A stretch of 13,126 bases of DNA from a virus (Duplodnaviria; Heunggongvirae; Uroviricota; Caudoviricetes): the IMG/VR virus record IMGVR_UViG_2718217868_000002, positions 1-13,126 of that record. One strand, given 5' to 3'. The notes under the pieces are model-generated. The model had not been told where the DNA came from, made no database searches, and was given only the letters and a program-made list of their open reading frames with translations. Of this stretch, positions 1,306-13,126 are shown in pieces (positions within the stretch are counted from its first letter, which is position 1; each line of letters starts with the position of its first letter). Position numbers and translations under genes: made by a program.

Positions 1306-1623
1306 ATGAAAAAGATAGCTGCTATATCATTAATTAGTATTTTTATTATGTCTGGTTGTGCTGTGCATAATGATGAGACAAGTATCGGTAAATTTGGTCT
1401 TGCATATAAAAGTAATATTCAGCGTAAACTCGATAACCAATACTACACCGAAGCCGAAGCTTCTTTAGCCAGGGGTAGAATATCTGGTGCAGAAAATATA
1501 GTAAAAAATGATGCAACTCATTTCTGTGTTACTCAGGGCAAAAAAATGCAAATAGTTGAGCTGAAGACAGAAGGTGTAGGATTACATGGTGTCGCTCGTC
1601 TGACATTCAAATGTGGAGAGTGA
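1306..1623 (+). CDS. yegR: Small putative lipoprotein YegR (105 aa)
   Basis: ATG at 1306 preceded by GGGGGAAGGTGAG (Shine-Dalgarno-like). N-terminus MKKIAAISLISIFIMSGC is a signal peptide with lipobox-like MSGC. The track ORF starts at 1246, but that extension lacks an RBS and precedes the signal peptide. AT-rich gene. Confidence 0.8.
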   Translation: MKKIAAISLISIFIMSGCAVHNDETSIGKFGLAYKSNIQRKLDNQYYTEAEASLARGRISGAENIVKNDATHFCVTQGKKMQIVELKTEGVGLHGVARLTFKCGE

Positions 1624-1685
1624 GAATATTTTTTGGTAAGCGTCAAATATGCGCGTTCTGGCTGTGCGTAGCCGGAACCTGTGGG

Positions 1686-1718
1686 AGCACGATGCCGATA
1701 AGTGAAAGGCATCGTGCT
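1686..1718. repeat. Perfect 11-bp inverted repeat (AGCACGATGCC / GGCATCGTGCT) with 11-nt loop; stable stem-loop in the host-side arm of attL
   Basis: Read directly: 1686-1696 is the exact reverse complement of 1708-1718. No T-tract follows on either strand, so it is not a canonical intrinsic terminator. Confidence 0.6.
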
Positions 1719-1782
1719 ATGAAGGAGGATTCTATCGATGTGGTCAATGGAAGACGGTTACCAGAGATAGGGCTTATGCATA

Positions 1783-1809
1783 AAAAAATAAGCCCGTGTA
1801 AGGGAGATT
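1783..1809. other. P2-type attachment core (attL junction) AAAAAATAAGCCCGTGTAAGGGAGATT
   Basis: 27-bp sequence matching my recollection of the phage P2 att core, lying about 80 bp downstream of the int stop codon, where P2 attP is expected. Flanked by a 7-bp inverted repeat GGCTTAT (1771-1777) / ATAAGCC (1788-1794). Confidence 0.6.
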
Positions 1810-1888
1810 TAGGGTGTCACCAGTAGGGGCTTTCAACGGTACAATGCGGGTTTGAGCGGCATAAATTACCACTGAAAGCCCTTAAACG

Positions 1889-2902
1889 TTACTCTACTGT
1901 GGACACTGTGTGGACACTCTCGGCCTCAGTACCACCTCTTAGCGGATTAAGAGAAATGGCGTCCTGAAGGTACTCTGGCGCAAAGTGAGCGTAAACCATA
2001 GTTTGCTCAATCCGCGTGTGACCTAGTATCCGTTGTAGCGTGATAATACTTCCTCCATTAATCATGAAATGAGTGGCAAAGCTGTGCCTTAGTGCATGTG
2101 TGGCTTGCCCCATTGGCAAATCCGGTTTTATTGCTTTCATTGTTCGTCTGAAGCGAGGGTAATCAGCATCAGGGAATAAAAAACCTCGTTTGTTATCCGC
2201 GATCATTTTGGCAACAGCCTCTGAGATCGGGACGGTGCGTGGTTTGTTTGTTTTCGTTTTAACAAACGTGACGCGGTTATGGATGATATTTTCTGCTTTC
2301 AAACGAGCTGCTTCTCCCCAACGTGCTCCAGTACTCAGGCAAAGAATCGCAATCTTTTTATTGTCGCCGTCAAGAGCAGCAAGCAGTAAGGCAATTTCTT
2401 CCTGCGTGAGATAGCCTGTGTCTGGTTTTTCCTCCTTAAGCCTTTTTGTCCCTCTGATAGGGTGCTCACCAAAGAATAACTCCGCTTCAATCAGGGCTGT
2501 AAACATGCCGCTAATACATGTTAAATCACGATTGATACTCGAAGGTTTAATACCCTGACTTCTTCGGGTGGCGCAGTACTGGCTGATAAGCGATTTCGTA
2601 ATTTGAAATGCGCATGGGTCATTCGTTATTTTTGTGAAGATTTCAATTTTTCCAAGATTAGATTTCCCATGCTCTTCGTGTTTACCCTTTAAATCCCACC
2701 AGATCTGTGTCAGCTCCGACAGACGTCGCTTGTCTGTTGGTTTTGATAGCCATTCTTTATTGTGGTGGTTGTACAACGTGTATTTCTCGAAAGCGACAGC
2801 TTCGCTTTTCTTATCAAACTTCCTACGGATGCGTTTTCCATTACGTCCAGTAGGGCGGATGTCCACTTCATATCGACCATCATCGAGTTTTTTGATTGCC
2901 AT
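1889..2902 (-). CDS. int: P2-type tyrosine integrase (337 aa)
   Basis: ATG at 2900-2902 (minus) with GGAGGG RBS upstream; TAA at 1889-1891. C-terminal catalytic region with HALRHSFAT...LGH...Y (R-H-R-Y tyrosine recombinase signature). Length and N-terminus MAIKKLDDGRYEVDIRP match phage P2 Int as I recall it. Confidence 0.95.
   Translation of the reverse strand: MAIKKLDDGRYEVDIRPTGRNGKRIRRKFDKKSEAVAFEKYTLYNHHNKEWLSKPTDKRRLSELTQIWWDLKGKHEEHGKSNLGKIEIFTKITNDPCAFQITKSLISQYCATRRSQGIKPSSINRDLTCISGMFTALIEAELFFGEHPIRGTKRLKEEKPDTGYLTQEEIALLLAALDGDNKKIAILCLSTGARWGEAARLKAENIIHNRVTFVKTKTNKPRTVPISEAVAKMIADNKRGFLFPDADYPRFRRTMKAIKPDLPMGQATHALRHSFATHFMINGGSIITLQRILGHTRIEQTMVYAHFAPEYLQDAISLNPLRGGTEAESVHTVSTVE
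1898..1918. repeat. Tandem direct repeat TGTGGACACT x2 (1898-1907 and 1909-1918); candidate arm-type Int binding sites (P' arm)
   Basis: Two 10-bp identical copies one helical turn apart, overlapping the 3' end of int. Assignment as Int arm sites is from recollection of P2 arm-site consensus (TGTGGACA-like), not verified. Confidence 0.4.
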
Positions 2903-3017
2903 CAGAAAACCCTCCGAGTGGTGTGTTTTTTGGCGACTACTAATCGCTTTTTTCGTGGTGGCTGAAATTTAGCCACCAATAGTAGGCACTTGTGATGAAT
3001 ATATTCACGATGAATTG

Positions 3018-3317
3018 TTAACCAGTCTTTTGACCGGAGTGGGGCGACGTTGTTTCGTTTTGCCCAAAGTGTGCGAGAGCGGGCGCAATTTGCCCGGACT
3101 CAGGAGCGATCTGATTGGTCATGAACCATAAAGTGTATTTGGTGAATTGTGGGGTCTGCAGGATGTTCATCATGACATCTGTTGGAGGTGTTGAACGACC
3201 ACTTTCATAGTAACTCAGCGTGCCATACGGAACCCCTGTTAAATCAGCAAGTTGTTGTCTGCTCAAATACTCTGATTTTCGCATTAAGACTATCTTCTCG
3301 CTTATCGTGTTTGACAT
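3018..3317 (-). CDS. C: Immunity repressor C (99 aa, P2 C-like, helix-turn-helix)
   Basis: 99-aa ORF divergent from cox; HTH-like segment LSRQQLADLTGVPYGTLSYYESG. Position (between int and cox) and size match P2 C. Confidence 0.9.
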   Translation of the reverse strand: MSNTISEKIVLMRKSEYLSRQQLADLTGVPYGTLSYYESGRSTPPTDVMMNILQTPQFTKYTLWFMTNQIAPESGQIAPALAHFGQNETTSPHSGQKTG

Positions 3318-3352
3318 GGTGTTTAGATCTCAATAGTATTTAGTTTAGATGT
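3311..3352 (+). promoter_or_regulatory. Early promoter Pe with C-operator direct repeats
   Basis: -35 TTGACA (3311-3316), 17-bp spacer, -10 TAGTAT (3334-3339). Two 10-bp direct repeats GTTTAGATCT (3321-3330) and GTTTAGATGT (3343-3352), 22 bp centre to centre, flank the -10. This is the P2-type arrangement of C operator half-sites, from memory of P2 biology. Confidence 0.55.
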
Positions 3353-3380
3353 AGATTGTTTAGTGCTTGGATGTGGGCAC

Positions 3381-3408
3381 TAAAAGGCATTATAAGGCAT
3401 TAAACGCA
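3381..3408. promoter_or_regulatory. Three phased cox-box-like repeats (TAAAAGGCA, TATAAGGCA, TTAAACGCA) overlapping a candidate Pc -10 (TATAAT on minus strand, 3389-3394)
   Basis: Tandem 9-bp repeats with about 10-bp periodicity upstream of cox; resemble the Cox recognition consensus TTAAA(G/C)NCA as I recall it. The Pc -35 is not convincingly identified. Confidence 0.45.
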
Positions 3409-3431
3409 ATTCATGAGGGCTGGAGGACGAC

Positions 3432-3707
3432 ATGAGCAAGCAAGTAACACTCATGACTGATGCGATTCCTTATCAGGAGTTCGCAAAACTAATAGGAAAA
3501 TCGACAGGAGCGGTTCGTCGGATGATCGATAAAGGAAAGCTGCCTGTAATTGATATGACCGATCCACAATCAGCTTCAGGTCGTGCAGGTGAATATTGGG
3601 TATACCTTCCGGCATGGAATAACGGACTAAAACTGGCTTATGAAAGCCGCCCTAAAGAGATTCGTGACGGCTGGTTGATGTGGTTAGGTCTCGGTGAACC
3701 ACGTTAA
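3432..3707 (+). CDS. cox: Cox (excisionase / Pc repressor, 91 aa)
   Basis: ATG at 3432 preceded by GGAGGA (3422-3427). 91 aa, first gene of the rightward early operon, as in P2. Confidence 0.9.
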   Translation: MSKQVTLMTDAIPYQEFAKLIGKSTGAVRRMIDKGKLPVIDMTDPQSASGRAGEYWVYLPAWNNGLKLAYESRPKEIRDGWLMWLGLGEPR

Positions 3708-3717
3708 GGAGAACCGT

Positions 3718-3888
3718 ATGAATGAGCCTCGTTGTATTGCTCAGTTACTGCGTAACGAAAGCCCCAGGGCGATTGACTTCAACATCACCCACGGTAAGGG
3801 GCGTAAGGGAATCATTATCCGCACCAAAAAACAGAGTCCGTTAAAAAAGGCTCTGACCTTTCTGAAAAGCCGGAGGGTATGGAAATGA
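3718..3888 (+). CDS. Small early protein, P2 orf78-like (56 aa)
   Basis: ATG at 3718 with AAGGAG RBS (3706-3711). Basic small protein. The track ORF start at 3694 overlaps the cox 3' end and lacks an RBS. Stop overlaps the B start (ATGA). Confidence 0.6.
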   Translation: MNEPRCIAQLLRNESPRAIDFNITHGKGRKGIIIRTKKQSPLKKALTFLKSRRVWK

Positions 3889-4385
3889 CAGTGATGACGC
3901 TCAATCTCGTTGAAAAACAGCCAGCAACTATGCGCCGGATAATTGGTAAGCATCTGGCCGTCCCTCGCTGGCAGGAGACATGCGATTATTATAATCAGAT
4001 GATGGAACGTGAACGGCTAACGGTTTGCTTCCATGCGCAGTTAAAACAGCGTCACGCAACGATGCGTTTTGAAGAAATGAACGACGTCGAACGTGAACGA
4101 CTGGTATGTGCAATTGATGAATTGCGTGGGGCATTCTCAAAACGCCGTCAGGTTGGCGCAAGTGAGTATGCATATATTAGTTTTTTAACAGTCAGTCAGC
4201 GTCGCACTTTATTTATGCACGCACGACTGACAGAAAAAGAATTTAACCAGCCATACTGGCGAATTAATGAAGAATCATGTTACTGGCGTGATGCTTTATT
4301 CCGTGCATTACGTGAATTATTCAGTCTGTTTGAGTATGCACCGACAATTCTGACGTCGGTAAAACCAGAGCAATATCTGCATTAA
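3885..4385 (+). CDS. B: Replication protein B (166 aa; P2 B-like, helicase-loader function)
   Basis: ATG at 3885 (7 nt after GGAGGG). Size and position match P2 gene B. Confidence 0.85.
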   Translation: MTVMTLNLVEKQPATMRRIIGKHLAVPRWQETCDYYNQMMERERLTVCFHAQLKQRHATMRFEEMNDVERERLVCAIDELRGAFSKRRQVGASEYAYISFLTVSQRRTLFMHARLTEKEFNQPYWRINEESCYWRDALFRALRELFSLFEYAPTILTSVKPEQYLH

Positions 4386-4448
4386 GTAATTAACCAGAGT
4401 TTTTAACGCACTTAATTGTGCGGGGCTTCTTTTTGCCTGGAGAAAGTC

Positions 4449-4673
4449 ATGCATACAGTTTCTGAAAATCAGTGCGGTATATACGCATTACTGCTGCAAC
4501 AGGCCAGAACCGAAGCACAGGCCGACGCTGCGACGCGCTTTTCTTCTCATCTTGACGCCATGATTCGCCACATCACAAAGGCGGAGTTATCCCGCGTGGA
4601 GATAGTCGAGCTGCTCAGTCAGGAGTCGGAAAAATTTCACAATATCGGATTGTCTCGTGGGGAGGTGCTTTGA
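4449..4673 (+). CDS. Hypothetical early protein (P2 orf80-like)
   Basis: ATG at 4449 after GGAGAAAG; stop TGA at 4671-4673 overlaps the next start. Start choice uncertain (track ORF begins at 4416). Confidence 0.5.
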
Positions 4674-4975
4674 TGTCCTGTTCTCATTCAGTTGTATTAC
4701 TGAATAACGCCTTAAAAATCGCCGTTATGGAAAATGGCGATTTGTCTCTTATTCAACTTGGTCTTGATAAAGAAAAGCGCGACATAACTGAATCTGTTAT
4801 CGCGATTTATCAGAGCGAATTAAACCTCCTGTCTGATGTGATCAATTTACTTGTGAAACGCGCTGTATTTCACAAGCAAATTTCCTCAGTGGATGAACTG
4901 ACAAAATTAACGACAGAACTCGCCAGCTATTGCGCTGATGAATTTAAGAAACTGAACGACAAAAGGAACTGGTAA
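4673..4975 (+). CDS. Hypothetical early protein (P2 orf81-like)
   Basis: ATG at 4673 (TGATG overlap with upstream stop), GGAGG RBS at 4661-4665; 100 aa. Confidence 0.6.
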   Translation: MSCSHSVVLLNNALKIAVMENGDLSLIQLGLDKEKRDITESVIAIYQSELNLLSDVINLLVKRAVFHKQISSVDELTKLTTELASYCADEFKKLNDKRNW

Positions 4976-5199
4976 TGCCGGACAACGTAGATTTCATTCA
5001 GGAACAACAGGCTGAATTACTGGAGCGCCAGATTAACGCGGCAAGGGTAAAACATTGCGGTGCTTCTGCGCTGGTTTGCGAAGAGTGTGACGCGCCAATA
5101 CCTGCTGCCCGTCGTGCGGCTTATCCGTCAGCCACGCGTTGTGTTTCCTGTCAGTCAGTCTTTGAAGCAAAAAACAAACATTACCGGAGAACGGCATGA
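4975..5199 (+). CDS. TraR/DksA-family C4 zinc-finger protein (P2 orf82-like, 74 aa)
   Basis: CEEC-x17-CVSC (Cys35/38 and Cys56/59) is the CxxC-x17-CxxC spacing of zf-DksA/TraR proteins. ATG at 4975 with TAATG overlap. Confidence 0.7.
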   Translation: MPDNVDFIQEQQAELLERQINAARVKHCGASALVCEECDAPIPAARRAAYPSATRCVSCQSVFEAKNKHYRRTA

Positions 5200-5471
5200 G
5201 TATTCGTATTGAAATTGGCGAACGTTATGTCGTTACCAGTGACAGCTTCCAGTTTATTCTCCACGAGAAAAAGAGAGCGGAAAGCGGTAAAAACGCCGGT
5301 CAGGAATGGCTGGCGGTGGTTGGTTATTACCCGAAATTAAGCCAGCTCGTTTCCGGCCTGATGCATCACGATATTCTGACCGGAAGCGCAAAGTCTTTTG
5401 CTGATTTAAACGCGCAGGTTGAGCAACTCAGCAAGCGTTGTTCAGAGGCTTTTGGCTCATATGGCCGTTAA
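5196..5471 (+). CDS. Hypothetical early protein (P2 orf83-like, 91 aa)
   Basis: ATG at 5196 (ATGA overlap with upstream gene), GGAGA RBS. Confidence 0.6.
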   Translation: MSIRIEIGERYVVTSDSFQFILHEKKRAESGKNAGQEWLAVVGYYPKLSQLVSGLMHHDILTGSAKSFADLNAQVEQLSKRCSEAFGSYGR

Positions 5472-7773
5472 AGCCTCCGGGCGTTTTGTCCCTCCGTCAG
5501 CATTTGCCGCAGGCACCGGTAAGACGTTTACCGGTGCTTATGCATGGAACGCGCCACGCGAGGCCGTCGGGCGCGAAAGACCCCTTACACGTGACGAGAT
5601 GCGTCAGGTGCAAGGTGTTTTATCCACGATTAACCGCCTGCCTTACTTTTTGCGTTCGCTGTTTACTTCACGCTATGACTACATCCGGCGCAATAAAAGC
5701 CCGGTGCACGGGTTTTATTTCCTCACATCCACTTTTCAGCGTCGTTTATGGCCGCGCATTGAGCGCGTGAATCAGCGCCATGAAATGAACACCGACGCGT
5801 CGTTACTGTTTCTGGCAGAGCGTGACCACTATGCGCGCCTGCCGGGAATGAATGACAAGGAGCTGAAAAAATTTGCCGCCCGTATCTCATCGCAGCTTTT
5901 CATGATGTATGAGGAACTCTGCGATGCCTGGGTGGATGCCCATGGCGAAAAAGAATCGCTGTTTACGGATGAGGCGCAGGCTCACCTGTATGGTCATGTT
6001 GCTGGCGCTGCACGTGCTTTCAATATTTCCCCGCTCTACTGGAAAAAATACCGTAAAGGACAGATGACCACGAGGCAGGCATATTCTGCCATTGCCCGCC
6101 TGTTTAACGATGAGTGGTGGACTCATCAGCTTAAAGGCCAGCGTATGCGCTGGCATGAGGCGTTACTGATTGCTGTCGGGGAGGTCAATAAAGACCGTTC
6201 TCCTTATGCCAGTAAACATGCCATTCGTGATGTGCGTGCACGCCGCCAGGCAAATCTGGAATTTCTTAAATCGTGTGACCTTGAAAACAGGGAAACCGGC
6301 GAGCGCATCGACCTTATCAGTAAGGTGATGGGCAGTATTTCTAATCCTGAAATTCGCCGGATGGAGCTGATGAACACCATTGCCGGTATTGAGCGTTACG
6401 CCGCAGCAGAGGGTGATGTGGGGATGTTTATCACGCTGACCGCGCCGTCAAAGTATCACCCGACACGTCAGGTCGGAAAAGGCGAAAGTAAAACCGTCCA
6501 GCTAAATCACGGCTGGAACGATGAGGCATTTAATCCAAAGGATGCGCAGCGTTATCTCTGCCATATCTGGAGCCTGATGCGCACGGCATTCAAGGATAAT
6601 GATTTACAGGTCTACGGTTTGCGTGTCGTCGAGCCACACCACGACGGAACGCCGCACTGGCATATGATGCTTTTTTGTAATCCACGCCAGCGTAACCAGA
6701 TTATTGAAATCATGCGTCGCTATGCGCTCAAAGAGGATGGCGACGAAAGAGGAGCCGCGCGAAACCGTTTTCAGGCAAAACACCTTAACCGGGGCGGTGC
6801 TGCGGGATATATCGCGAAATACATCTCAAAAAACATCGACGGCTATGCACTGGATGGTCAGCTCGATAATGATACCGGTAGGCCGCTGAAAGACACAGCT
6901 GCGGCTGTTACCGCATGGGCGTCAACGTGGCGCATTCCGCAATTTAAAACGGTTGGTCTGCCGACAATGGGGGCTTACCGTGAACTACGCAAATTGCCTC
7001 GCGGCGTCAGCATTGCTGATGAGTTTGACGAGCGCGTCGAGGCTGCACGCGCCGCCGCAGACAGTGGTGATTTTGCGTTGTATATCAGCGCGCAGGGTGG
7101 GGCAAATGTCCCGCGCGATTGTCAGACTGTCAGGGTCGCCCGTAGCCCGTCGGATGACGTTAACGAGTATGAGGAAGAAGTCGAGAGAGTGGTCGGCATT
7201 TACGCGCCGCATCTCGGCGCGCGTCATATTCATATCACCAGAACGACGGACTGGCGCATTGTTCCGAAAGTGCCGGTCTTTGAGCCTTTGACTTTAAAAA
7301 GCGGCATCGCCGCGCCTCGGAGTCCTGTCAATAACTGTGGAAAGCCTGCCAGCAGTGATACTTCGTTACCGGCTCCCACACCTTCTGAACATGCCGCAGC
7401 AGTGCTTAATCTGGTAGATGACGGTGTTATCGAATGGAGTGACCCGGAGGTTGTGAGGGCGCTCAGGGATGCATTAAAACACGGCCTGAAAACACCAAAT
7501 CGTCAGCAAAGAAACGGAAGCCCGTTAAAACTACATGAAATAGCACCGTCGGCCAGACTGACCAGGTCGGAACGAATGCAAATCACCCGTATCCGCGTTG
7601 ACCTTGTTCAGAATGGTATCAGGCCTCAGCGATGGGAGCTTGAGGCGTTGGTTCGAGGAGCGAGAGTAAATTATGGTGATATGTCATTCAAATTTCCAAT
7701 TGATGATCGATTTTATGATGATGTTAACTCTTTGAATTTATGGAGTATTGAGTCTCGTGTGAACTTCACATAA
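5461..7773 (+). CDS. A: Replication initiation protein A (rolling-circle initiator, P2 A-like)
   Basis: About 770 aa from ATG 5461 (MAVKASGRFVPP...); the track ORF begins at a TTG at 5419. Large GC-rich gene in the position of P2 A. The last ~35 codons (about 7665-7773) switch abruptly to AT-rich composition. Confidence 0.85.
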   Translation: MAVKASGRFVPPSAFAAGTGKTFTGAYAWNAPREAVGRERPLTRDEMRQVQGVLSTINRLPYFLRSLFTSRYDYIRRNKSPVHGFYFLTSTFQRRLWPRIERVNQRHEMNTDASLLFLAERDHYARLPGMNDKELKKFAARISSQLFMMYEELCDAWVDAHGEKESLFTDEAQAHLYGHVAGAARAFNISPLYWKKYRKGQMTTRQAYSAIARLFNDEWWTHQLKGQRMRWHEALLIAVGEVNKDRSPYASKHAIRDVRARRQANLEFLKSCDLENRETGERIDLISKVMGSISNPEIRRMELMNTIAGIERYAAAEGDVGMFITLTAPSKYHPTRQVGKGESKTVQLNHGWNDEAFNPKDAQRYLCHIWSLMRTAFKDNDLQVYGLRVVEPHHDGTPHWHMMLFCNPRQRNQIIEIMRRYALKEDGDERGAARNRFQAKHLNRGGAAGYIAKYISKNIDGYALDGQLDNDTGRPLKDTAAAVTAWASTWRIPQFKTVGLPTMGAYRELRKLPRGVSIADEFDERVEAARAAADSGDFALYISAQGGANVPRDCQTVRVARSPSDDVNEYEEEVERVVGIYAPHLGARHIHITRTTDWRIVPKVPVFEPLTLKSGIAAPRSPVNNCGKPASSDTSLPAPTPSEHAAAVLNLVDDGVIEWSDPEVVRALRDALKHGLKTPNRQQRNGSPLKLHEIAPSARLTRSERMQITRIRVDLVQNGIRPQRWELEALVRGARVNYGDMSFKFPIDDRFYDDVNSLNLWSIESRVNFT

Positions 7774-7776
7774 TAT
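7748..7776 (+). promoter_or_regulatory. Candidate sigma70 promoter for the cargo operon
   Basis: -35-like TTGAGT (7748-7753), 17-bp spacer, -10-like TAATAT (7771-7776), about 50 nt upstream of the SIR2 start. Weak matches; by-eye only. Confidence 0.3.
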
Positions 7777-7827
7777 GGGGCCGTTGTAGGTGTTTGAATA
7801 ATCAGACTTCAATTCAAAGGGATAATT

Positions 7828-9075
7828 ATGGTTATTTATCAAGGTGGTAAGATAATATCTGAAGATGATTTTTATTCTCATCTTTATTCGTTATGTCAGT
7901 TGGATAATGTAGGGGTTCTTTTAGGCGCGGGAGCATCGGTCGGATGTGGCGGCCAAACTATGAAGCAGGTATGGCAGTTTTTTAAATATGAACATCCTGA
8001 TCTATTGAATTTGTTACTAGAAAAATACTTATTGGTTGACAAAACTGAATCTGAACAAGATATAGTTAATGTTGAGCTTCTAATTGATGAAGTAACTAAA
8101 TTCTTGTCTGTGGCCAAAACAAGACGTAATGAAGACGAACAAAAAGAAATTAGTTTAATATTAAGTGCTTTGTATAAACAAGTAACAAAGGCTGCATTGT
8201 TAACTGGAGAAGAGTTTGGTTGTAAAAATCAAGGGAAGAAAAAACAGTTTAAGTCTCATAAAGAATTAATTTCAAAGTTGATTTCAAATAGGCAGCCGGG
8301 ACAATCGGCTCCGGCACTTTTTACTACCAACTATGATTTGGCATTAGAGTGGGCAGCTGAAGATTTAGGAATTCAGCTATTTAATGGTTTTTCAGGATTG
8401 CATACAAGACAATTTTATCCTCAAAATTTTGATTTGGCATTTAGAAATGTCAATGCAAAAGGGGAGGCTAGATTTGGTCATTATCACGCTTATCTATATA
8501 AATTGCATGGCTCTCTTACATGGTATCAGGATGATTTTTTAATAGTTAATGAGATAAGTGCATCTCAGGCATATGATAATTACATTAAAAATATTATTAA
8601 TGGTGACGGTTTTTACTATGGTCAACATTTAATTTATCCGGGGGCTAATAAATATAGCCATACAATTGGTTTTGTTTACGGTGAAATGTTTAGACGTTTT
8701 GGCGAGTTTTTGTCAAAACCTCAAACCGCTTTGTTTATTAATGGGTTTGGGTTTGGTGATTATCATATAAACAGAATTGTTTTTGGTGCTTTGTTAAATC
8801 CGTCATTTCATGTTGTTATTTATTACCCTGATCTGGAGAATGCTTTAGATAAAGTTAGTAGAGGCGTTGCTTCTGAAGGTGAAAAGGCAATTGATGCTTT
8901 AAAAAATATGCAATTCAATCAAGTGACTATCGTGGGTGGGGGGGCAGATGCTTACTTTGATAGTTTTGTGAAACATCTTCCTTATCCGGTGTTGTTCCCA
9001 AGAGAAAATACTGTTGATGACTTGGTTGAAGCTATTTCTAAATTGTCTAAAGGGGAAGGGAATGTCGCATTTTAA
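7828..9075 (+). CDS. SIR2-family (sirtuin-like / DHS-like NAD-binding) protein, predicted NAD+ hydrolase effector (415 aa)
   Basis: ATG at 7828 with AAGGGA RBS. Glycine-rich loop GAGASVGCGG (aa 33-42, nt 7924-7953). TTNYD motif (aa 166-170, nt 8323-8337). HG(S) motif in KLHGSL (His227, nt 8506-8508). Order and spacing match defence-associated SIR2 domains (ThsA/SIR2_2-like). Gene is about one-third GC against ~55-60% in flanking phage genes (hand count on sample 60-mers). Confidence 0.8.
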   Translation: MVIYQGGKIISEDDFYSHLYSLCQLDNVGVLLGAGASVGCGGQTMKQVWQFFKYEHPDLLNLLLEKYLLVDKTESEQDIVNVELLIDEVTKFLSVAKTRRNEDEQKEISLILSALYKQVTKAALLTGEEFGCKNQGKKKQFKSHKELISKLISNRQPGQSAPALFTTNYDLALEWAAEDLGIQLFNGFSGLHTRQFYPQNFDLAFRNVNAKGEARFGHYHAYLYKLHGSLTWYQDDFLIVNEISASQAYDNYIKNIINGDGFYYGQHLIYPGANKYSHTIGFVYGEMFRRFGEFLSKPQTALFINGFGFGDYHINRIVFGALLNPSFHVVIYYPDLENALDKVSRGVASEGEKAIDALKNMQFNQVTIVGGGADAYFDSFVKHLPYPVLFPRENTVDDLVEAISKLSKGEGNVAF

Positions 9076-10882
9076 ACTATCTGAATTATCTGCTATTGGG
9101 TATGTCGTTGGTCTGGAGGGCGAAAAAATAAGGATAAATCTTCATGAAGGATTGCAAGGTAGGCTCGCCTCTCATAGGGATGGTGTTAGTTCTGTTACTC
9201 AGCCTGGAGATTTGATCGGTTTTGATGCCGGAAATATTCTGGTTGTGGCTCGAGTTACAGATATGGCATTTGTCGAGGCTGATAAAGCACATAAGGCAAA
9301 AATAGGTACATCAGATATAGCAGATATGCCGTTAAGGCAAATAATAGCCTATGCAATAGGTTTTATTAGACGAGATATAGATGGATGTGTGTTTGTTTCG
9401 GAAGACTGGAGGTTACCTGCTCTGGGAGCATCCGCTGTCCCGTTAACATCTGATTTTTTAAATATCGTATATAGTATTGATAAAAATGATCTGGATAAAG
9501 CAATTGAGTTAGAAATAGATTCGAGGACTAAATCAGTTAAAATTTTAGCTAGCATTGATAAATTACTAACCAGGCATATGGCTGTTTTGGGCAGTACTGG
9601 ATATGGTAAATCTAATTTTAATGCTTTACTTACACGCCGCATTTCAGAACAGTACCCTAATGCAAGAATAGTAATTTTTGATATTAATGGCGAGTATTCT
9701 CAGGCTTTTGAAGGTGTTGCTAATGTTAAACATACTATTTTAGGTGAGTTACCAAAAGGAGAGTTTCCAAAACCACCTCTACAGAAAGGAGATATATTTT
9801 CTGAGAATGAACATTACTACTATAGAAAAATACCTTATCAAGCATTGGGATTTGCTGGGTTGATAAAATTACTACGCCCTAGTGATAAGACACAATTACC
9901 TGCATTAAGAAATGCGCTTAATGCTATAAATAGTGTTCATTTTTCCGATGATTCATTCTTTCTTAAGGATGAAGTAGGGGGCGTATTTAATATTTTTGAT
10001 GATTGTAGAGATGAAGGGCAAGAGCTTTTATCTGCGTGGTTGAGTTTCTTAAGAAGAGGGATGCTGTGTAAGGCAAATAAATGGCCGCCGTTTAAAAGTA
10101 TTGCTAACTTGGTTGCGGAGTTTGGTTGCGTGGCGGCGGATTCGCGAAAAGCTGGATCTAGTAAACGAGATGCTTTTAGCTATGGTAATGTTCTGCCATT
10201 GATTAAGATAATTCAACAGTTATCAGAGGATTCTAGATTCAAGTATGTTGTTGATTTAAATGGAGGTGGTGAATTATTAAGTGATGGCAAACATTGGGAA
10301 TTAGCTATGAGACAGGAAGTTGATTATTTCTTTGGTAAAGAAAAGGGAGAGGAGAATGACTGGAATATTCATATTGTTAATTTTAAGCATCTTTCACAAG
10401 ATCATGCTCCAATGCTGTTAAGTGCATTATTAGAAATGTTTGCTGAAGTTCTCTTTCTTAGGGGGCAAAACAAAGCTTTTCCAACCGTGTTACTTCTTGA
10501 AGAGGCGCACCACTATTTAAGAGATCCTTATTCTGAAGTTGATGCACAAATTAAAGCTTATGAAAGACTTGCTAAAGAAGGGCGTAAATTTAAATGTTCA
10601 CTTATTGTGAGCACACAACGACCATCAGAGCTTTCATCAACAGTATTAGCAATGTGTGCAAATTGGTTTTCGTTGCGCCTGACAAATGAGCGTGATTTGC
10701 AGACTTTACGGTATGCGATGGAAAGTGGAAATGAGTTAATGATTCGGCAGATTTCTGGGCTTCCAAGAGGAGATGCAATAGCGTTTGGTGCTGCTTTTAA
10801 TATACCCGTAAGAATTTCAATTCACCCTGCTGTACCCGGTCCGAGATCGTCTGACGCAAGTTATTCTCAAGAATGGCGATAA
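9062..10882 (+). CDS. HerA-like (FtsK/HerA superfamily) P-loop ATPase, 606 aa
   Basis: ATG at 9062 preceded by AGGGGAAGGGA; start lies 14 nt inside the upstream gene (translational coupling). Walker A GSTGYGKS (aa 177-184, nt 9590-9613). Walker B-like VLLLEEAHH (aa 476-484, nt 10487-10513). TQRP motif (aa 518-521, nt 10613-10624), characteristic of HerA/VirB4-type ATPases. N-terminal ~170 aa is consistent with a HAS-barrel. AT-rich like its partner. Confidence 0.8.
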   Translation: MSHFKLSELSAIGYVVGLEGEKIRINLHEGLQGRLASHRDGVSSVTQPGDLIGFDAGNILVVARVTDMAFVEADKAHKAKIGTSDIADMPLRQIIAYAIGFIRRDIDGCVFVSEDWRLPALGASAVPLTSDFLNIVYSIDKNDLDKAIELEIDSRTKSVKILASIDKLLTRHMAVLGSTGYGKSNFNALLTRRISEQYPNARIVIFDINGEYSQAFEGVANVKHTILGELPKGEFPKPPLQKGDIFSENEHYYYRKIPYQALGFAGLIKLLRPSDKTQLPALRNALNAINSVHFSDDSFFLKDEVGGVFNIFDDCRDEGQELLSAWLSFLRRGMLCKANKWPPFKSIANLVAEFGCVAADSRKAGSSKRDAFSYGNVLPLIKIIQQLSEDSRFKYVVDLNGGGELLSDGKHWELAMRQEVDYFFGKEKGEENDWNIHIVNFKHLSQDHAPMLLSALLEMFAEVLFLRGQNKAFPTVLLLEEAHHYLRDPYSEVDAQIKAYERLAKEGRKFKCSLIVSTQRPSELSSTVLAMCANWFSLRLTNERDLQTLRYAMESGNELMIRQISGLPRGDAIAFGAAFNIPVRISIHPAVPGPRSSDASYSQEWR

Positions 10883-11036
10883 TCTTGTGGGAGAATGTAA
10901 TAGGATAACGATAAGTGCATCTATCTGCATTAATTCGAATAAGGTTGAGAGGAGTTCAAAAACAAATTTAGACCGGCATTAGAGTGATTTAGATAGACAT
11001 ATGCAACTGCATTAAAACCGCCCCATGAAGCGGGCG

Positions 11037-11055
11037 GGCGAGGCGGGGAAAGCAC
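11037..11055. other. cos site: 19-nt P2-type cohesive-end sequence GGCGAGGCGGGGAAAGCAC
   Basis: Exact 19-mer matching my recollection of the P2 cohesive end, in the expected prophage position between the right-end accessory genes and Q. Preceded by a GC hairpin, CCGCCC (11018-11023) / GGGCGG (11032-11037). Confidence 0.55.
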
Positions 11056-11196
11056 TGCGCGCTGGCGGTGGTGCTGATTTTATTTTTTCAGCGTCTGAGC
11101 GCGTCGTGATGGCGTTTAGATTGTTAGCCGGGGCGTTGGTGTGTCTGCGGGCTGTTTTGTGCGGTGGTGAGCGTGTGAGGGCGTGATGGCGGGGTG

Positions 11197-11220
11197 TAAA
11201 AAAGCCGCCCGCAGGCGGCG
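11197..11220 (-). terminator. Rho-independent terminator downstream of Q
   Basis: GCCGCC (11204-11209) / GGCGGC (11214-11219) stem with CGCA loop, immediately followed on the minus strand by a T-run (plus-strand A-run 11198-11203), 4 nt after the Q stop codon. Confidence 0.65.
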
Positions 11221-11224
11221 ATGT

Positions 11225-12259
11225 TCAGCCGTTGTCAGTGTCCAGTGAGTAGTTTTTAAAGCGGATGACCTCCTGACCGAGCCAGCCGTTTATCTCGCGG
11301 ATCCTGTCCTGTAACGGGATAAGCTCATTGCGGACAAAGACCTTTGCCACTTTCTCAATATCACCCAGCGACCCGACGTTCTCCGGCTTGCCGCCCATCA
11401 ACTGAAAGGGGATGCGGTGCGCGTCCAGCAGGTCAGCGGCGCTGGCTTTTTTGATATTAAAAAAATCGTCCTTCGTTGCCACTTCACTGAGCGGGATAAT
11501 TTTAATGCCGTCAGCTTTCCCCTGCGGGGCATAGAGAAACAGGTTTTTAAAGTTGTTGCGGCCTTTCGACTTCACCATGTTTTCGCGAAGCATTTCGATA
11601 TCGTTGCGATCCTGCACGGCATCGGTAACGTACATGATGTATCCGGCATGAGCGCCGTTTTCGTAATACTTGCGGCGGAACAGCGTGGCTGACTCATTCA
11701 GCCAGGCAGAGTTAAGGGCGCTGAGATATTCCGGCAGGCCGTACAGCTCCTGATTAATATCCGGCTCCAGCAGATGAAACACGGAGCCAGGTGCGAAGGC
11801 TGTCGGCTCGTTGAAGGAAGGCACCCACCAGTAAACATCCTCCTCCACGCCACGGCGGGTATATTTTGCCGGTGAGGTTTCCAGTCTGATGACCTTGCCG
11901 GTGGTGCTGTAACGCTTTTCCAGAAACGCATTGCCGAACACCAGAAAATCCAGCACAAAGCGGCTGAAATCCTGCTGGGAAAGCCACGGATGCGGGATAA
12001 ATGTCGAGGCCAGAATATTGCGTTTGACGTAAATCGGGGAGCTGTGATGCACGGCAGCACGCAGGCTTTTTGCCAGACCGGTAAAGCTGATTGGTGGCTC
12101 ATACCATCTGCCGTTACTGATGCATTCGACGTAATCCAGAATGTCACGGCGGTCGAGTACCGGCACCGGCTCACCAAAGGTGAATGCCTCCATTTTCGGG
12201 GCGCTGGCGGTCATTTTTTTTGCCGCAGGTTGCGGTGTTTTCCCTTTTTTCTTGCTCAT
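11225..12259 (-). CDS. Q: Portal protein Q (344 aa, P2 Q-like)
   Basis: ATG at 12257-12259 (minus), TGA at 11225-11227. Size and sequence recognised as the P2 capsid portal protein; leftward-transcribed gene adjacent to cos, as in P2. Confidence 0.9.
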   Translation of the reverse strand: MSKKKGKTPQPAAKKMTASAPKMEAFTFGEPVPVLDRRDILDYVECISNGRWYEPPISFTGLAKSLRAAVHHSSPIYVKRNILASTFIPHPWLSQQDFSRFVLDFLVFGNAFLEKRYSTTGKVIRLETSPAKYTRRGVEEDVYWWVPSFNEPTAFAPGSVFHLLEPDINQELYGLPEYLSALNSAWLNESATLFRRKYYENGAHAGYIMYVTDAVQDRNDIEMLRENMVKSKGRNNFKNLFLYAPQGKADGIKIIPLSEVATKDDFFNIKKASAADLLDAHRIPFQLMGGKPENVGSLGDIEKVAKVFVRNELIPLQDRIREINGWLGQEVIRFKNYSLDTDNG

Positions 12260-12528
12260 CAGTAAAACTCCAGAATGGTGGATGTCAGCGGGGTGCTGAT
12301 ACCGGCGGTGAGTGGCTCATTTAACAGGGCGTGCATGGTCGCCCAGGCGAGGTCGGCGTGGCTGGCTTCCTCGCTGCGGCTGGCCTCATAGGTGGCGCTG
12401 CGCCCGCTGCTGGTCATGGTCTTGCGGATAGCCATAAACGAGCTGGTGATGTCGGTGGCGCTGACGTCGTATTCCAGACAGCCACGGCGGATAACGTCTT
12501 TTGCCTTGAGCACCATTGCGGTTTTCAT
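12259..12528 (-). pseudogene. P: Truncated terminase large subunit P (C-terminal ~90 codons only)
   Basis: Minus-strand frame that ends with a TGATG stop/start overlap onto Q, the P-Q operon arrangement. The frame is closed by a stop about 45 codons further upstream and the sequence beyond ~12540 instead reads as coding on the plus strand. An intact P would be about 590 aa. Upstream boundary approximate. Confidence 0.5.
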
Positions 12529-12540
12529 TTCCGGTGTGTG

Positions 12541-12624
12541 CCTCCTCTTGAAAACCTGACCCTGCGCCAGCGTATTACCGATAAATACCTGGCAAATCTG
12601 GTCACCTCGGTTAACAGCAATTAA
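12541..12624 (+). pseudogene. FI: 3' remnant of tail sheath gene FI (last ~28 codons)
   Basis: Plus-strand frame with host-typical codons (CTG, CGC, CAG, ACC) ending at TAA 12622-12624, directly upstream of the FII RBS AAGGAG (12624-12629). Assignment is by position relative to FII. Left boundary uncertain. Confidence 0.35.
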
Positions 12625-12636
12625 GGAGCCTGACCG

Positions 12637-12852
12637 ATGGCAATGCCGCGCAAACTCAAGTTAATGAACGTCTTTCTGAACGGCTACAGCTATCAGGGCG
12701 TTGCAAAGTCCGTCACGCTGCCAAAACTGACCCGTAAGCTCGAAAACTATCGCGGTGCGGGGATGAACGGCAGCGCACCGGTAGACCTCGGCCTTGATGA
12801 CGATGCTCTGTCAATGGAGTGGTCGCTCGGTGGATTCCCGGATTCGGTTATA
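12637..12852 (+). pseudogene. FII: Truncated tail tube gene FII (N-terminal 72 codons)
   Basis: ATG at 12637 after AAGGAG. N-terminus MAMPRKLKLMNVFLNGYSYQGVAKSVTLPKL... recognised as P2 FII. The reading frame breaks after ...GGFPDSVI (about 12852) and then runs to an early stop at 12898-12900. Confidence 0.6.
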
Positions 12853-12853
12853 T

Positions 12854-13126
12854 GCCACGAAAGCACAGGCCATGCGCGCCGCTCAGGCGAAGTGGGATAA
12901 ACTGCAACGGGGCGTTGCGGAGTTCTCCATCAGCCTGGCTACTGGTCGGGCAGATATTTACACGGAAACACCGGTCAAAGTGTCTGGCTTTAAGCGCGTC
13001 ATAGACGAGCAGGACTGGACAATCACTAAGGTGACACACTTTCTGAATAATAGTGGCTTCACGACGTCCTTAGAACTTGAGGTAAGGCTTTCTGATGTGG
13101 AGTACGAAACAGAAGATGATGAGTGA
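12854..13126 (+). pseudogene. D: C-terminal fragment of tail protein D (~90 codons), fused out of frame to FII'
   Basis: Second frame reads ...ATKAQAMRAAQAKWDKLQRGVAEFSISLATGRADIYTETPVKV...SDVEYETEDDE with stop at 13124-13126. Recognised as the C-terminus of P2 gpD (the K-12 yegZ-like remnant). The N-terminal part of the track ORF (12794..) is an out-of-frame read of FII. Confidence 0.55.

What the first reader, a model, noticed from the sequence alone, without database searches (positions are those of the whole stretch)
12529..13126. Prophage is gutted: P, FI, FII and D survive only as fused fragments
Upstream of the intact portal gene Q, only the last ~90 codons of P remain. They abut a ~28-codon tail of FI, then the first 72 codons of FII, joined out of frame to the last ~90 codons of D. 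At least two deletions therefore removed most of P plus the capsid (O, N, M, L), lysis and tail genes, and most of FII through D. The element cannot make virions, yet the regulatory and replication arm and the defence cargo look intact. That pattern is consistent with retention of the remnant for its cargo.
Basis: partly seen in the sequence, partly recalled or inferred. Interest (0 to 1): 0.65.

Follow-up and report, generated by a model that had tools for sequence, protein, structure and literature searches.

The report
Gutted P2-like prophage remnant
This is an ordinary defective P2-type prophage in E. coli that lost its virion and lysis genes through two clean deletions but kept its control, replication and SIR2-HerA defence genes. 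The less ordinary part is that its breakpoints fall on sites reused, to the nucleotide, in many unrelated P2 remnants.

Summary
The window is E. coli H6/H5 chromosome, from yegS to the stop codon of D, across a P2-like prophage at the yegR/cyaR-yegQ attachment site.

Window 12259-12539 holds the last 93 codons of P. Window 12538-12624 holds the last 28 codons of FI, and 12637-12852 the first 72 codons of FII. These are joined out of frame to the last 91 codons of D (12849-13126). Identity to P2 proteins is 99-100%.

Two simple deletions explain everything. They remove P2 1502-18755 and 19070-23676. Both junctions share only 2-3 nt (GT, TAT). All four late promoters are gone.

The int, C, cox, B and A genes, ori, SIR2-HerA, cos, Q, ogr and both att cores are intact.

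The junction is real. It occurs in H5, H6, a third assembly, a metagenome and two Logan runs. RefSeq already annotates the four fragments as pseudogenes, and defective P2 prophages with conserved defence genes are published. "Kept for its cargo" is neither shown nor excluded.

One result was unexpected. In 35 distinct junctions from other P2 remnants, 19 cross at a TA present in both parents (3.6% expected). The H6 breakpoint in P (P2 1501/1502) is reused with 12 different partners. The mechanism is unknown.

The parts
1783..1809 (.). attL core. It is a perfect copy of the 27-bp P2 att core AAAAAATAAGCCCGTGTAAGGGAGATT and marks the left end of the prophage.
1889..2902 (-). int (337 aa), an intact ORF
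   Evidence: 0 differences from 13E0767 and 18AR0366
3018..3317 (-). C immunity repressor (99 aa), intact
3432..3707 (+). cox (91 aa), intact
3718..5471 (+). orf78, B, orf80, orf81, orf82 and orf83, all intact
5461..7773 (+). A replication endonuclease (770 aa). The ori nick site is at about window 7319, derived from P2 29892. There are three H6-specific substitutions: A22T, R368H and A384V.
7828..9075 (+). SIR2 protein of the SIR2-HerA defence pair (415 aa). This is low-GC cargo in the P2 A/cos hotspot.
9062..10882 (+). HerA ATPase (606 aa). Walker A lies at residues 177-184. There is an H6-specific G151E substitution.
11008..11055 (.). cos region (P2 33546-33593 joined to P2 1-19). The 19-nt cohesive-end sequence lies at 11037-11055.
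11225..12259 (-). Q portal gene. The ORF is intact (344 aa), but its promoter P_P has been deleted.
12259..12539 (-). P' pseudogene, the last 93 codons of the terminase large subunit (P2 1221-1501)
12538..12539 (.). Junction 1 joins P2 1500-1501 to 18756-18757. The shared bases are GT. It deletes 17,254 bp relative to P2. The left side sits on the recurrent breakpoint ..CCGG(C/T)GTGTA|.
12538..12624 (+). FI' pseudogene, the last 28 codons of the tail sheath gene plus its stop codon
12637..12900 (+). FII' fusion ORF. It has the first 72 codons of the tail tube gene, then 15 out-of-frame codons read from D DNA.
12849..12851 (.). Junction 2 joins P2 19067-19069 to 23677-23679. The shared bases are TAT. 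It deletes about 4.6 kb. P2 19067 is also the right endpoint of the deletion in strain PE15.
12849..13126 (+). D' pseudogene, the last 91 codons of D plus its stop codon. The intact ogr gene and attR follow just outside the window.

Best explanation
The region is the right-hand scar of a recently 'grounded' P2-like (Peduovirus) prophage. It sits at the P2 locI-type attachment site at the 3' end of cyaR, between yegR and yegQ/trhP.

What is shown:
- Two RecA-independent, illegitimate-recombination deletions removed the whole late region except Q and four gene stubs. They share only GT and TAT at the joints.
- The first took out 17.25 kb, from inside P to inside FI. The second took out 4.6 kb, from inside FII to inside D.
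- All four Ogr-dependent late promoters went with them.

What this means for function:
- The element can no longer build capsids or tails, package DNA or lyse the cell.
- The fragments P', FI', FII' and D' are inert pseudogenes. Q is an orphan without a promoter.
- What remains is an 11,772-bp element with both att cores, int, C, cox, B, A/ori, a SIR2-HerA defence pair, cos and ogr.

What is inferred:
- The host keeps repressor immunity and NAD-depleting abortive-infection defence without the risk of induction.
- The deletions began as DNA breaks at preferred sites. The left endpoints of both H6 junctions are sites reused in unrelated remnants.
For: Collinear near-identical blocks against P2, with breakpoints mapped to the base.

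The same mapping holds against the closest near-intact relative, 13E0767. The match is 99.3% over 10.9 kb without gaps, FI'/FII' 316/317 and D' 278/278.

P_P, P_O, P_V and P_F (P2 3016-3127, 10239-10308, 17555-17628) lie inside deletion 1.

All early ORFs, SIR2, HerA and Q are open and almost identical to relatives. The padloc matches are SIR2 3e-188 and HerA 1e-270.

Both 27-bp att cores are perfect, and ogrK is annotated as intact.

The identical junction is present in H5, H6, GCA_045581035.1, metagenome ERZ28603213 and two Logan runs.

Endpoint reuse is documented.
Against: There are no expression or induction data. Intactness of the early arm and cargo rests on ORFs only. HerA carries an H6-specific G151E and A carries three H6-specific substitutions of unknown effect. 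Whether the remnant still excises or replicates was not tested. The claim that the deletions are recent rests on low divergence, not on a dated phylogeny.
Confidence: 0.9

Rival explanations
1. Cargo-driven domestication. On this view the remnant persists because selection keeps SIR2-HerA (and perhaps C immunity), while the dangerous late genes were selected away.
For: - Independent gutted derivatives of the same prophage at the same locus keep SIR2 100% identical: 18AR0366, and the 23CRST025 type.
- GCA_019297415.1 has additionally lost cox'-A but keeps SIR2-HerA.
- The literature reports conserved defence genes in defective P2 elements (PMC13586616).
Against: - The deletions are too young to show differential decay. 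Q, useless here, is also intact.
- K-12 lost cargo and everything else at this site.
- The late region is about 70% of the genome, so random deletions hit it most often.
- My sample was selected for retained genes.
- Most copies of this SIR2 protein sit in prophages that still have P-O-N-M (7 of 10 contexts).
Confidence: 0.3
2. Helper-dependent mobilisable mini-P2. The 11.8-kb remnant keeps attL/attR, int, cox, A/ori, cos and ogr, and is the size of P4. It could therefore excise, replicate and be packaged as multimers by a superinfecting P2-like helper, behaving like a satellite.
For: All cis and trans functions for excision, replication and cos recognition are intact on sequence. The length is 11,772 bp.
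Against: - There are no capsid-size or helper-exploitation genes (sid, psu, delta, epsilon, alpha).
- C immunity would repress a homoimmune helper.
- In the 10 SIR2 contexts shown, the element is always at the yegR locus. The H6-type junction itself occurs in few samples and only at this locus. This suggests vertical descent.
- No helper was identified in H6.
Confidence: 0.07
3. Assembly artefact or chimeric contig.
For: None found.
Against: The identical junctions occur in two complete genomes, a third assembly, one metagenome assembly and two independent Logan assemblies.
Confidence: 0.01

Closest known systems
Bacteriophage P2 (NC_001895) and Peduovirus prophages of E. coli
   Same: Gene order, att core, cos, and 96.7-98.7% nucleotide identity in every retained block. 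The cargo sits in the known A/cos (old-tin) defence hotspot.
   Different: It lacks P2 1502-18755 and 19070-23676. The cargo is SIR2-HerA instead of old/tin. It is not a functional phage.
E. coli K-12 cryptic prophage PR-X (ogrK, yegZ = D')
   Same: Same chromosomal site (yegR / cyaR-yegQ). It retains the 3' end of D, ogr and attR.
   Different: K-12 keeps only P2 23745-24382. Its left junction lies inside the attL core, right after GTGTA (..AAGCCCGTGTA|GCAGAGTTC). The D breakpoint is 23745, against 23677 in H6, so it was a separate event. K-12 lost int, the early genes, any cargo, cos and Q.
Defective P2-like prophage of E. coli B (REL606)
   Same: Same locus. It also has an FII'/D' fusion and a truncated head region.
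   Different: The breakpoints differ (P2 945|9206 and 19155|23463). It keeps V-H, FI and different cargo.
Defective P2-like elements with conserved defence genes ('UGRs', NAR 2026, PMC13586616)
   Same: The same phenomenon: pseudogenised mobility or virion genes beside near-identical defence genes.
   Different: That study gives no breakpoint anatomy. The passages I read do not mention recurrent TA junctions.
SIR2-HerA (Nezha) anti-phage system
   Same: A two-gene SIR2 + HerA architecture, with full-length matches to the PADLOC models and Pfam SIR2_2 and HerA/DUF87.
   Different: Activity was not tested here. HerA carries G151E in H6.
Satellite phage P4
   Same: Similar size (11.8 kb against 11.6 kb from my own knowledge of P4). 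It carries a P2-type cos, an integrase, and an Ogr/Delta-family activator.
   Different: There is no alpha primase, sid, psu, delta or epsilon. Every gene is P2-derived. It is not a P4-family member.

Membership tests
P2-like (Peduovirus) prophage | Collinear int-C-cox-B-A early arm and cos-Q-P ... D-ogr late arm homologous to P2 | tested here: met
   96.7-98.7% nucleotide identity in all retained blocks, in P2 order
P2-like (Peduovirus) prophage | Flanked by direct copies of the 27-bp att core at a known P2 attachment site | tested here: met
   perfect cores at L001 4784 and 16529; same site as K-12 PR-X, overlapping the 3' end of cyaR.
P2-like (Peduovirus) prophage | Complete set of head, tail, terminase and lysis genes (a functional phage) | tested here: not met
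   P, O, N, M, L, X, Y, K, lysABC, R, S, V, W, J, I, H, G, FI, FII, E, T, U and D are absent or truncated
Defective / cryptic prophage | Prophage-derived DNA lacking genes essential for particle formation, fixed in the chromosome | tested here: met
   Non-inducibility itself is not testable with these tools.
SIR2-HerA (Nezha) defence system | Adjacent SIR2-domain and HerA-ATPase genes matching the system's profiles over their full length | tested here: met
   (PDLC02186 3e-188; PDLC02185 1e-270)
SIR2-HerA (Nezha) defence system | Protection against phage through NAD+ depletion | not testable with these tools
   needs plaque and NAD assays
P4-like satellite | alpha primase-helicase, sid/psu capsid-size genes, delta/epsilon helper-control genes | tested here: not met
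   every ORF between attL and attR is a P2 homologue or the SIR2-HerA pair
Int-promoted secondary-site deletion (P2 eduction or lambda-type) | One deletion endpoint inside an att core | tested here: not met
   both H6 junctions lie far from attL and attR. The K-12 PR-X junction does meet it.

The most novel reading that the evidence does not exclude
P2-like prophages are not gutted by random illegitimate recombination. A site-preferring DNA break-and-rejoin activity centred on TA dinucleotides does it.

Evidence for a non-random process:
- Of 35 distinct deletion junctions from unrelated E. coli remnants, 19 cross at a TA present in both parents. No other homology is shared between the partners.
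- Endpoints recur to the nucleotide with different partners.
- The H6 breakpoint in P (..CGTGTA|, identical to the centre of the att core CCCGTGTA|AGGG) is used with 12 partners.
- The K-12 PR-X remnant is cut at exactly that position inside attL.

The agent could be the prophage's own tyrosine integrase acting on core-like pseudo-sites. It could also be an unidentified TA-specific nuclease, transposase or topoisomerase.
Probability: 0.5. Interest if true: 0.7.

Novelty: new member of a known kind. Interest (0 to 1): 0.4.

Why it matters
As given, the finding is a textbook example of prophage decay with a retained defence system. It is useful for annotation but not surprising.

The breakpoint pattern would matter more. 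If TA-centred, reused breakpoints reflect a specific enzyme, then 'grounding' of P2-type prophages is a directed, repeatable reaction rather than slow random erosion. P2-type prophages are a major reservoir of E. coli defence systems. That would make the long-standing question of how prophages become domesticated testable with simple genetics: which mutant stops the deletions?

Tried and rejected
1. The K-12 D' stub as the same event: rejected, because the D breakpoints differ (23745 against 23677).
2. Assembly artefact: rejected.
3. IS-mediated deletion: no IS or foreign DNA lies at either junction.
4. Longer microhomology as the driver: partners share nothing beyond TA. Flanking identity is 1.41/6 and 1.71/6, against about 1.5/6 at random.
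5. Type IIA topoisomerase (gyrase or Topo IV) cleavage motif (-4G, -2A, -1T): it does not fit the CGGnTAnCCG context.
6. Topoisomerase I: it does prefer T|A in vivo (PMC9352719). However, by my hand count from the site list, its obligatory C at -4 is present at only 12 of 25 TA endpoints. That equals my rough background estimate of about 45%.
7. Int arm-type sites near the P hotspot: none found.
8. Gin/Pin-type invertase carried by some P2-like prophages (Z217-4): its cix-like sites cross at TT/AA, not TA.
9. A purely P2-Int-specific explanation is weakened. The same hotspots are used in prophages with different att cores at the fieF and pflB loci. Those sequences also have a central TA.
10. 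Literature searches found no description of TA-biased or recurrent breakpoints in P2 remnants.
11. The presence of a helper P2-like prophage in H6 could not be determined.

Full report
**Identity of the window.** The 13,126-bp window is 100% identical to E. coli strains H6 (NZ_CP010170.1, 1939991-1953116) and H5. It runs from yegS and yegR into a P2-like prophage and ends on the stop codon of gene D. The intact ogrK, attR, cyaR and yegQ follow immediately outside it.

**Check of the observation.** blastn against phage P2 (NC_001895) gives collinear blocks.

| Window | P2 | Content |
|---|---|---|
| 1783-7675 | 24356-30248 | attL core, int, C, cox, orf78, B, orf80-83, A |
| 11008-11055 | cosR/cosL join | cos |
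| 11037-12539 | 1-1501 | tQ, Q, 3' end of P |
| 12538-12854 | 18756-19072 | 3' end of FI, 5' part of FII |
| 12849-13126 | 23677-23954 | 3' end of D |

Translations give the following.
- P residues 498-590 (92/93 identical).
- FI residues 369-396 (28/28).
- FII residues 1-72 (72/72).
- D residues 297-387 (91/91).
- A full-length Q (340/343).

FII' runs on for 15 out-of-frame codons, because FII and D are in different frames. NCBI's PGAP annotates the same four partial pseudogenes.

**The two deletions.**
- Deletion 1 joins P2 1500/1501 to 18756/18757. The shared bases are GT, and 17,254 bp are lost.
- Deletion 2 joins P2 19067-19069 to 23677-23679. The shared bases are TAT, and about 4.6 kb are lost.
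- There is no IS, no filler DNA and no inversion.
- The same mapping holds against the closest near-intact relative, the prophage of strain 13E0767. Window 1603-12539 is 99.3% identical without gaps. FI'/FII' is 316/317 and D' is 278/278.
- All four late promoters and their Ogr-binding sites (P2 3016-3127, 10239-10308, 17555-17628) lie inside deletion 1. Q is therefore an orphan ORF, and Ogr has no target in cis.

**What survives.**
- int, C, cox, orf78, B, orf80-83, A, SIR2, HerA and Q are all open reading frames of full length. They have 0-3 amino-acid differences from relatives.
- The cargo at 7828-10882 has low GC. It matches the PADLOC SIR2 and HerA models end to end (3e-188 and 1e-270; Pfam).
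- It sits in the known P2 A/cos defence hotspot.
- Both 27-bp att cores are perfect.
- The element is 11,772 bp from attL to attR.
- H6-specific changes are A22T, R368H and A384V in A, and G151E in HerA. The HerA change lies outside Walker A at residues 177-184. Their effect is unknown.

**Is it real, and how widespread?**
- Both junctions occur in only 2 of 5,426 complete E. coli genomes, H5 and H6.
- The junction-2 fusion ORF is also found in GCA_045581035.1, in a metagenome assembly (ERZ28603213) and in two Logan runs, always with the same structure.
- It is therefore a genuine feature of a small lineage and not an artefact.
- The exact SIR2 protein is far more common (1,249 index blocks). 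In all ten contexts shown it sits at the yegR locus. Seven of those still have P, O, N and M.

**Interpretation.**
- The remnant is an ordinary defective P2-like prophage.
- The same locus holds differently decayed copies in E. coli B (P2 945|9206 and 19155|23463) and in K-12 (PR-X, only P2 23745-24382).
- Three other independently gutted versions of the same SIR2-HerA prophage exist. These are 18AR0366 (628|23726), the 23CRST025 type (1502|5591 and 10670|23485), and a derivative of the 23CRST025 type that also lost cox'-A.
- A 2026 survey already reports defective P2 elements whose defence genes stay nearly identical to those of intact phages. It leaves open whether this is domestication (PMC13586616).
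- My data cannot decide that question. The deletions are young, Q is intact although useless, K-12 shows total loss, and the sample is ascertained through retained genes.
- I therefore rate 'retained for its cargo' as possible but unproven.

**Unexpected pattern in the breakpoints.** I mapped junctions in other remnants in four ways.
- From BLAST hits.
- From contigs that encode the 89-aa P' ORF of this window.
- From contigs that encode the 84-aa D' ORF.
- From a metagenome pattern scan.

Together these gave 35 distinct direct junctions. Four results stand out.

1. *TA at the crossover.* Of the 32 junctions with at least 2 nt of shared sequence, 19 cross at a TA present in both parents. Simulated random junctions give 3.6% (p about 1e-19). 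In the subset found without the ORF look-ups the figure is 12 of 21 (p about 1e-12). TA is the rarest dinucleotide in P2.

2. *Endpoint reuse.* Endpoints recur to the nucleotide with different partners. There are 16 coincident pairs in the unbiased subset, against 0.28 expected.
   - The left endpoint of H6 junction 1, P2 1501/1502 (..CCGG(C/T)GTGTA|GCGG), is joined in other genomes to P2 2090, 2652 (inverted), 5591, 11317, 12757, 18030, 19067, 22304, 22410 and two divergent tail-fibre sequences.
   - These occur in prophages at three different chromosomal loci and with different cargo.
   - The left endpoint of H6 junction 2 (P2 19067) is the right endpoint of the PE15 deletion.

3. *No flanking homology.* The partners share nothing beyond the TA. 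The TA endpoints do share a dyad-symmetric context, roughly CGGnTAnCCG.

4. *The K-12 junction.* The K-12 PR-X remnant is cut inside the attL core, exactly after GTGTA (..AAGCCCGTGTA|GCAGAG..). It is joined to a D site that another remnant also uses. TA endpoints resemble the centre of the att core more than background TA sites do (p = 8e-5 for the +/-5 nt flank).

H6 junction 1 itself is GT rather than TA-TA. It lies one base inside the hotspot TA, and its right partner is not a TA site.

**Candidate mechanisms for the pattern.** Gyrase and Topo IV motifs do not fit. Topoisomerase I prefers T|A in vivo, but its required C at -4 is not enriched at these sites. No Int arm-type sites lie near the hotspot. 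The invertase of some P2-like prophages crosses at TT/AA.

An integrase acting on core-like pseudo-sites is attractive. The central hexamer CGTGTA is shared, the K-12 junction lies in the core, and an inversion occurs at the hotspot in L020. Two points argue against it. Such an event would be unprecedented for two arm-less sites. The same hotspots are also used in prophages with other att cores, although those sequences also carry a central TA. I found no published description. The pattern is statistically solid, but it is small-sample and mechanistically unexplained.

**Verdict.** The structural interpretation is supported, and the adaptive interpretation is unproven. The object is a new member of a well-known kind and is of low intrinsic interest. 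The recurrent TA-centred breakpoints, on which both H6 junctions sit, are the part worth following up.

Noticed in passing
window 12530-12540 (P2 1496-1502), and loci L007, L012, L017, L018, L020, L022, L025, L026, L053, L065, L066: The sequence ..CCGG(C/T)GTGTA| in gene P is a deletion endpoint reused with 12 different partner sites. The remnants involved are unrelated, sit at three chromosomal loci and carry different cargo.
   Followed up: yes
35 junctions in loci L001-L067 (P2 coordinates in notebook entries 2-5): 19 of the 32 junctions with at least 2 nt of shared sequence cross at a TA present in both parents, against 3.6% expected. The partners share no other homology. The endpoints have a dyad-symmetric CGGnTAnCCG context. 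The mechanism is unknown.
   Followed up: partly
L005 7770-7900 (E. coli K-12 PR-X): The left junction of the K-12 D'-ogr remnant lies inside the attL core, exactly after GTGTA. It is fused to P2 23745, a D site that remnant L022 also uses. This looks like an integrase-type secondary-site deletion.
   Followed up: partly
L001 16532-16617 (just right of the window); window 1783-1809: The sRNA gene cyaR (Rfam RF00112, 100.7 bits) ends inside attR. The P2 att core is therefore the 3' end of cyaR. attL in the window carries a duplicate of that end.
   Followed up: partly
L045 / L021 (GCA_019297415.1): This copy of the same SIR2-HerA prophage has lost P-M, V-D and also cox'-A. The early-region junction shares TACC. 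SIR2-HerA and Q remain intact.
   Followed up: partly
L020 (GCA_022354705.1), P2 2343-2652: A 310-bp segment of P is inverted and joined to the 1502 hotspot at a TA. This is the only inversion seen among the junctions.
   Followed up: no
window 9062-10882 and 5461-7773: There are H6-lineage-specific substitutions: HerA G151E, which is 26 residues before Walker A, and A protein A22T, R368H and A384V. Their functional effect is unknown.
   Followed up: no
window 1783-13126 plus L001 16128-16555: The remnant is 11,772 bp, about the size of satellite P4. It keeps cos, int, cox, ori/A, ogr and both att cores, so it could in principle be mobilised by a helper.
   Followed up: no
L051 23109-25411 (strain 13E0767): The closest 'intact' relative is itself defective. 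An IS21-family ISEc12 element interrupts tail-fibre gene H.
   Followed up: no
L064 13416-15996 (strain Z217-4): This P2-like remnant carries a Gin/Pin-type serine invertase. Cix-like inverted sites (crossover TT/AA) flank alternative tail-fibre genes.
   Followed up: partly
window 12259-12528 (minus strand): The 89-aa P' ORF (Terminase_6C) with exactly this sequence is listed in 794 index blocks of public assemblies. Truncation of P just upstream of this ATG is therefore very common.
   Followed up: partly
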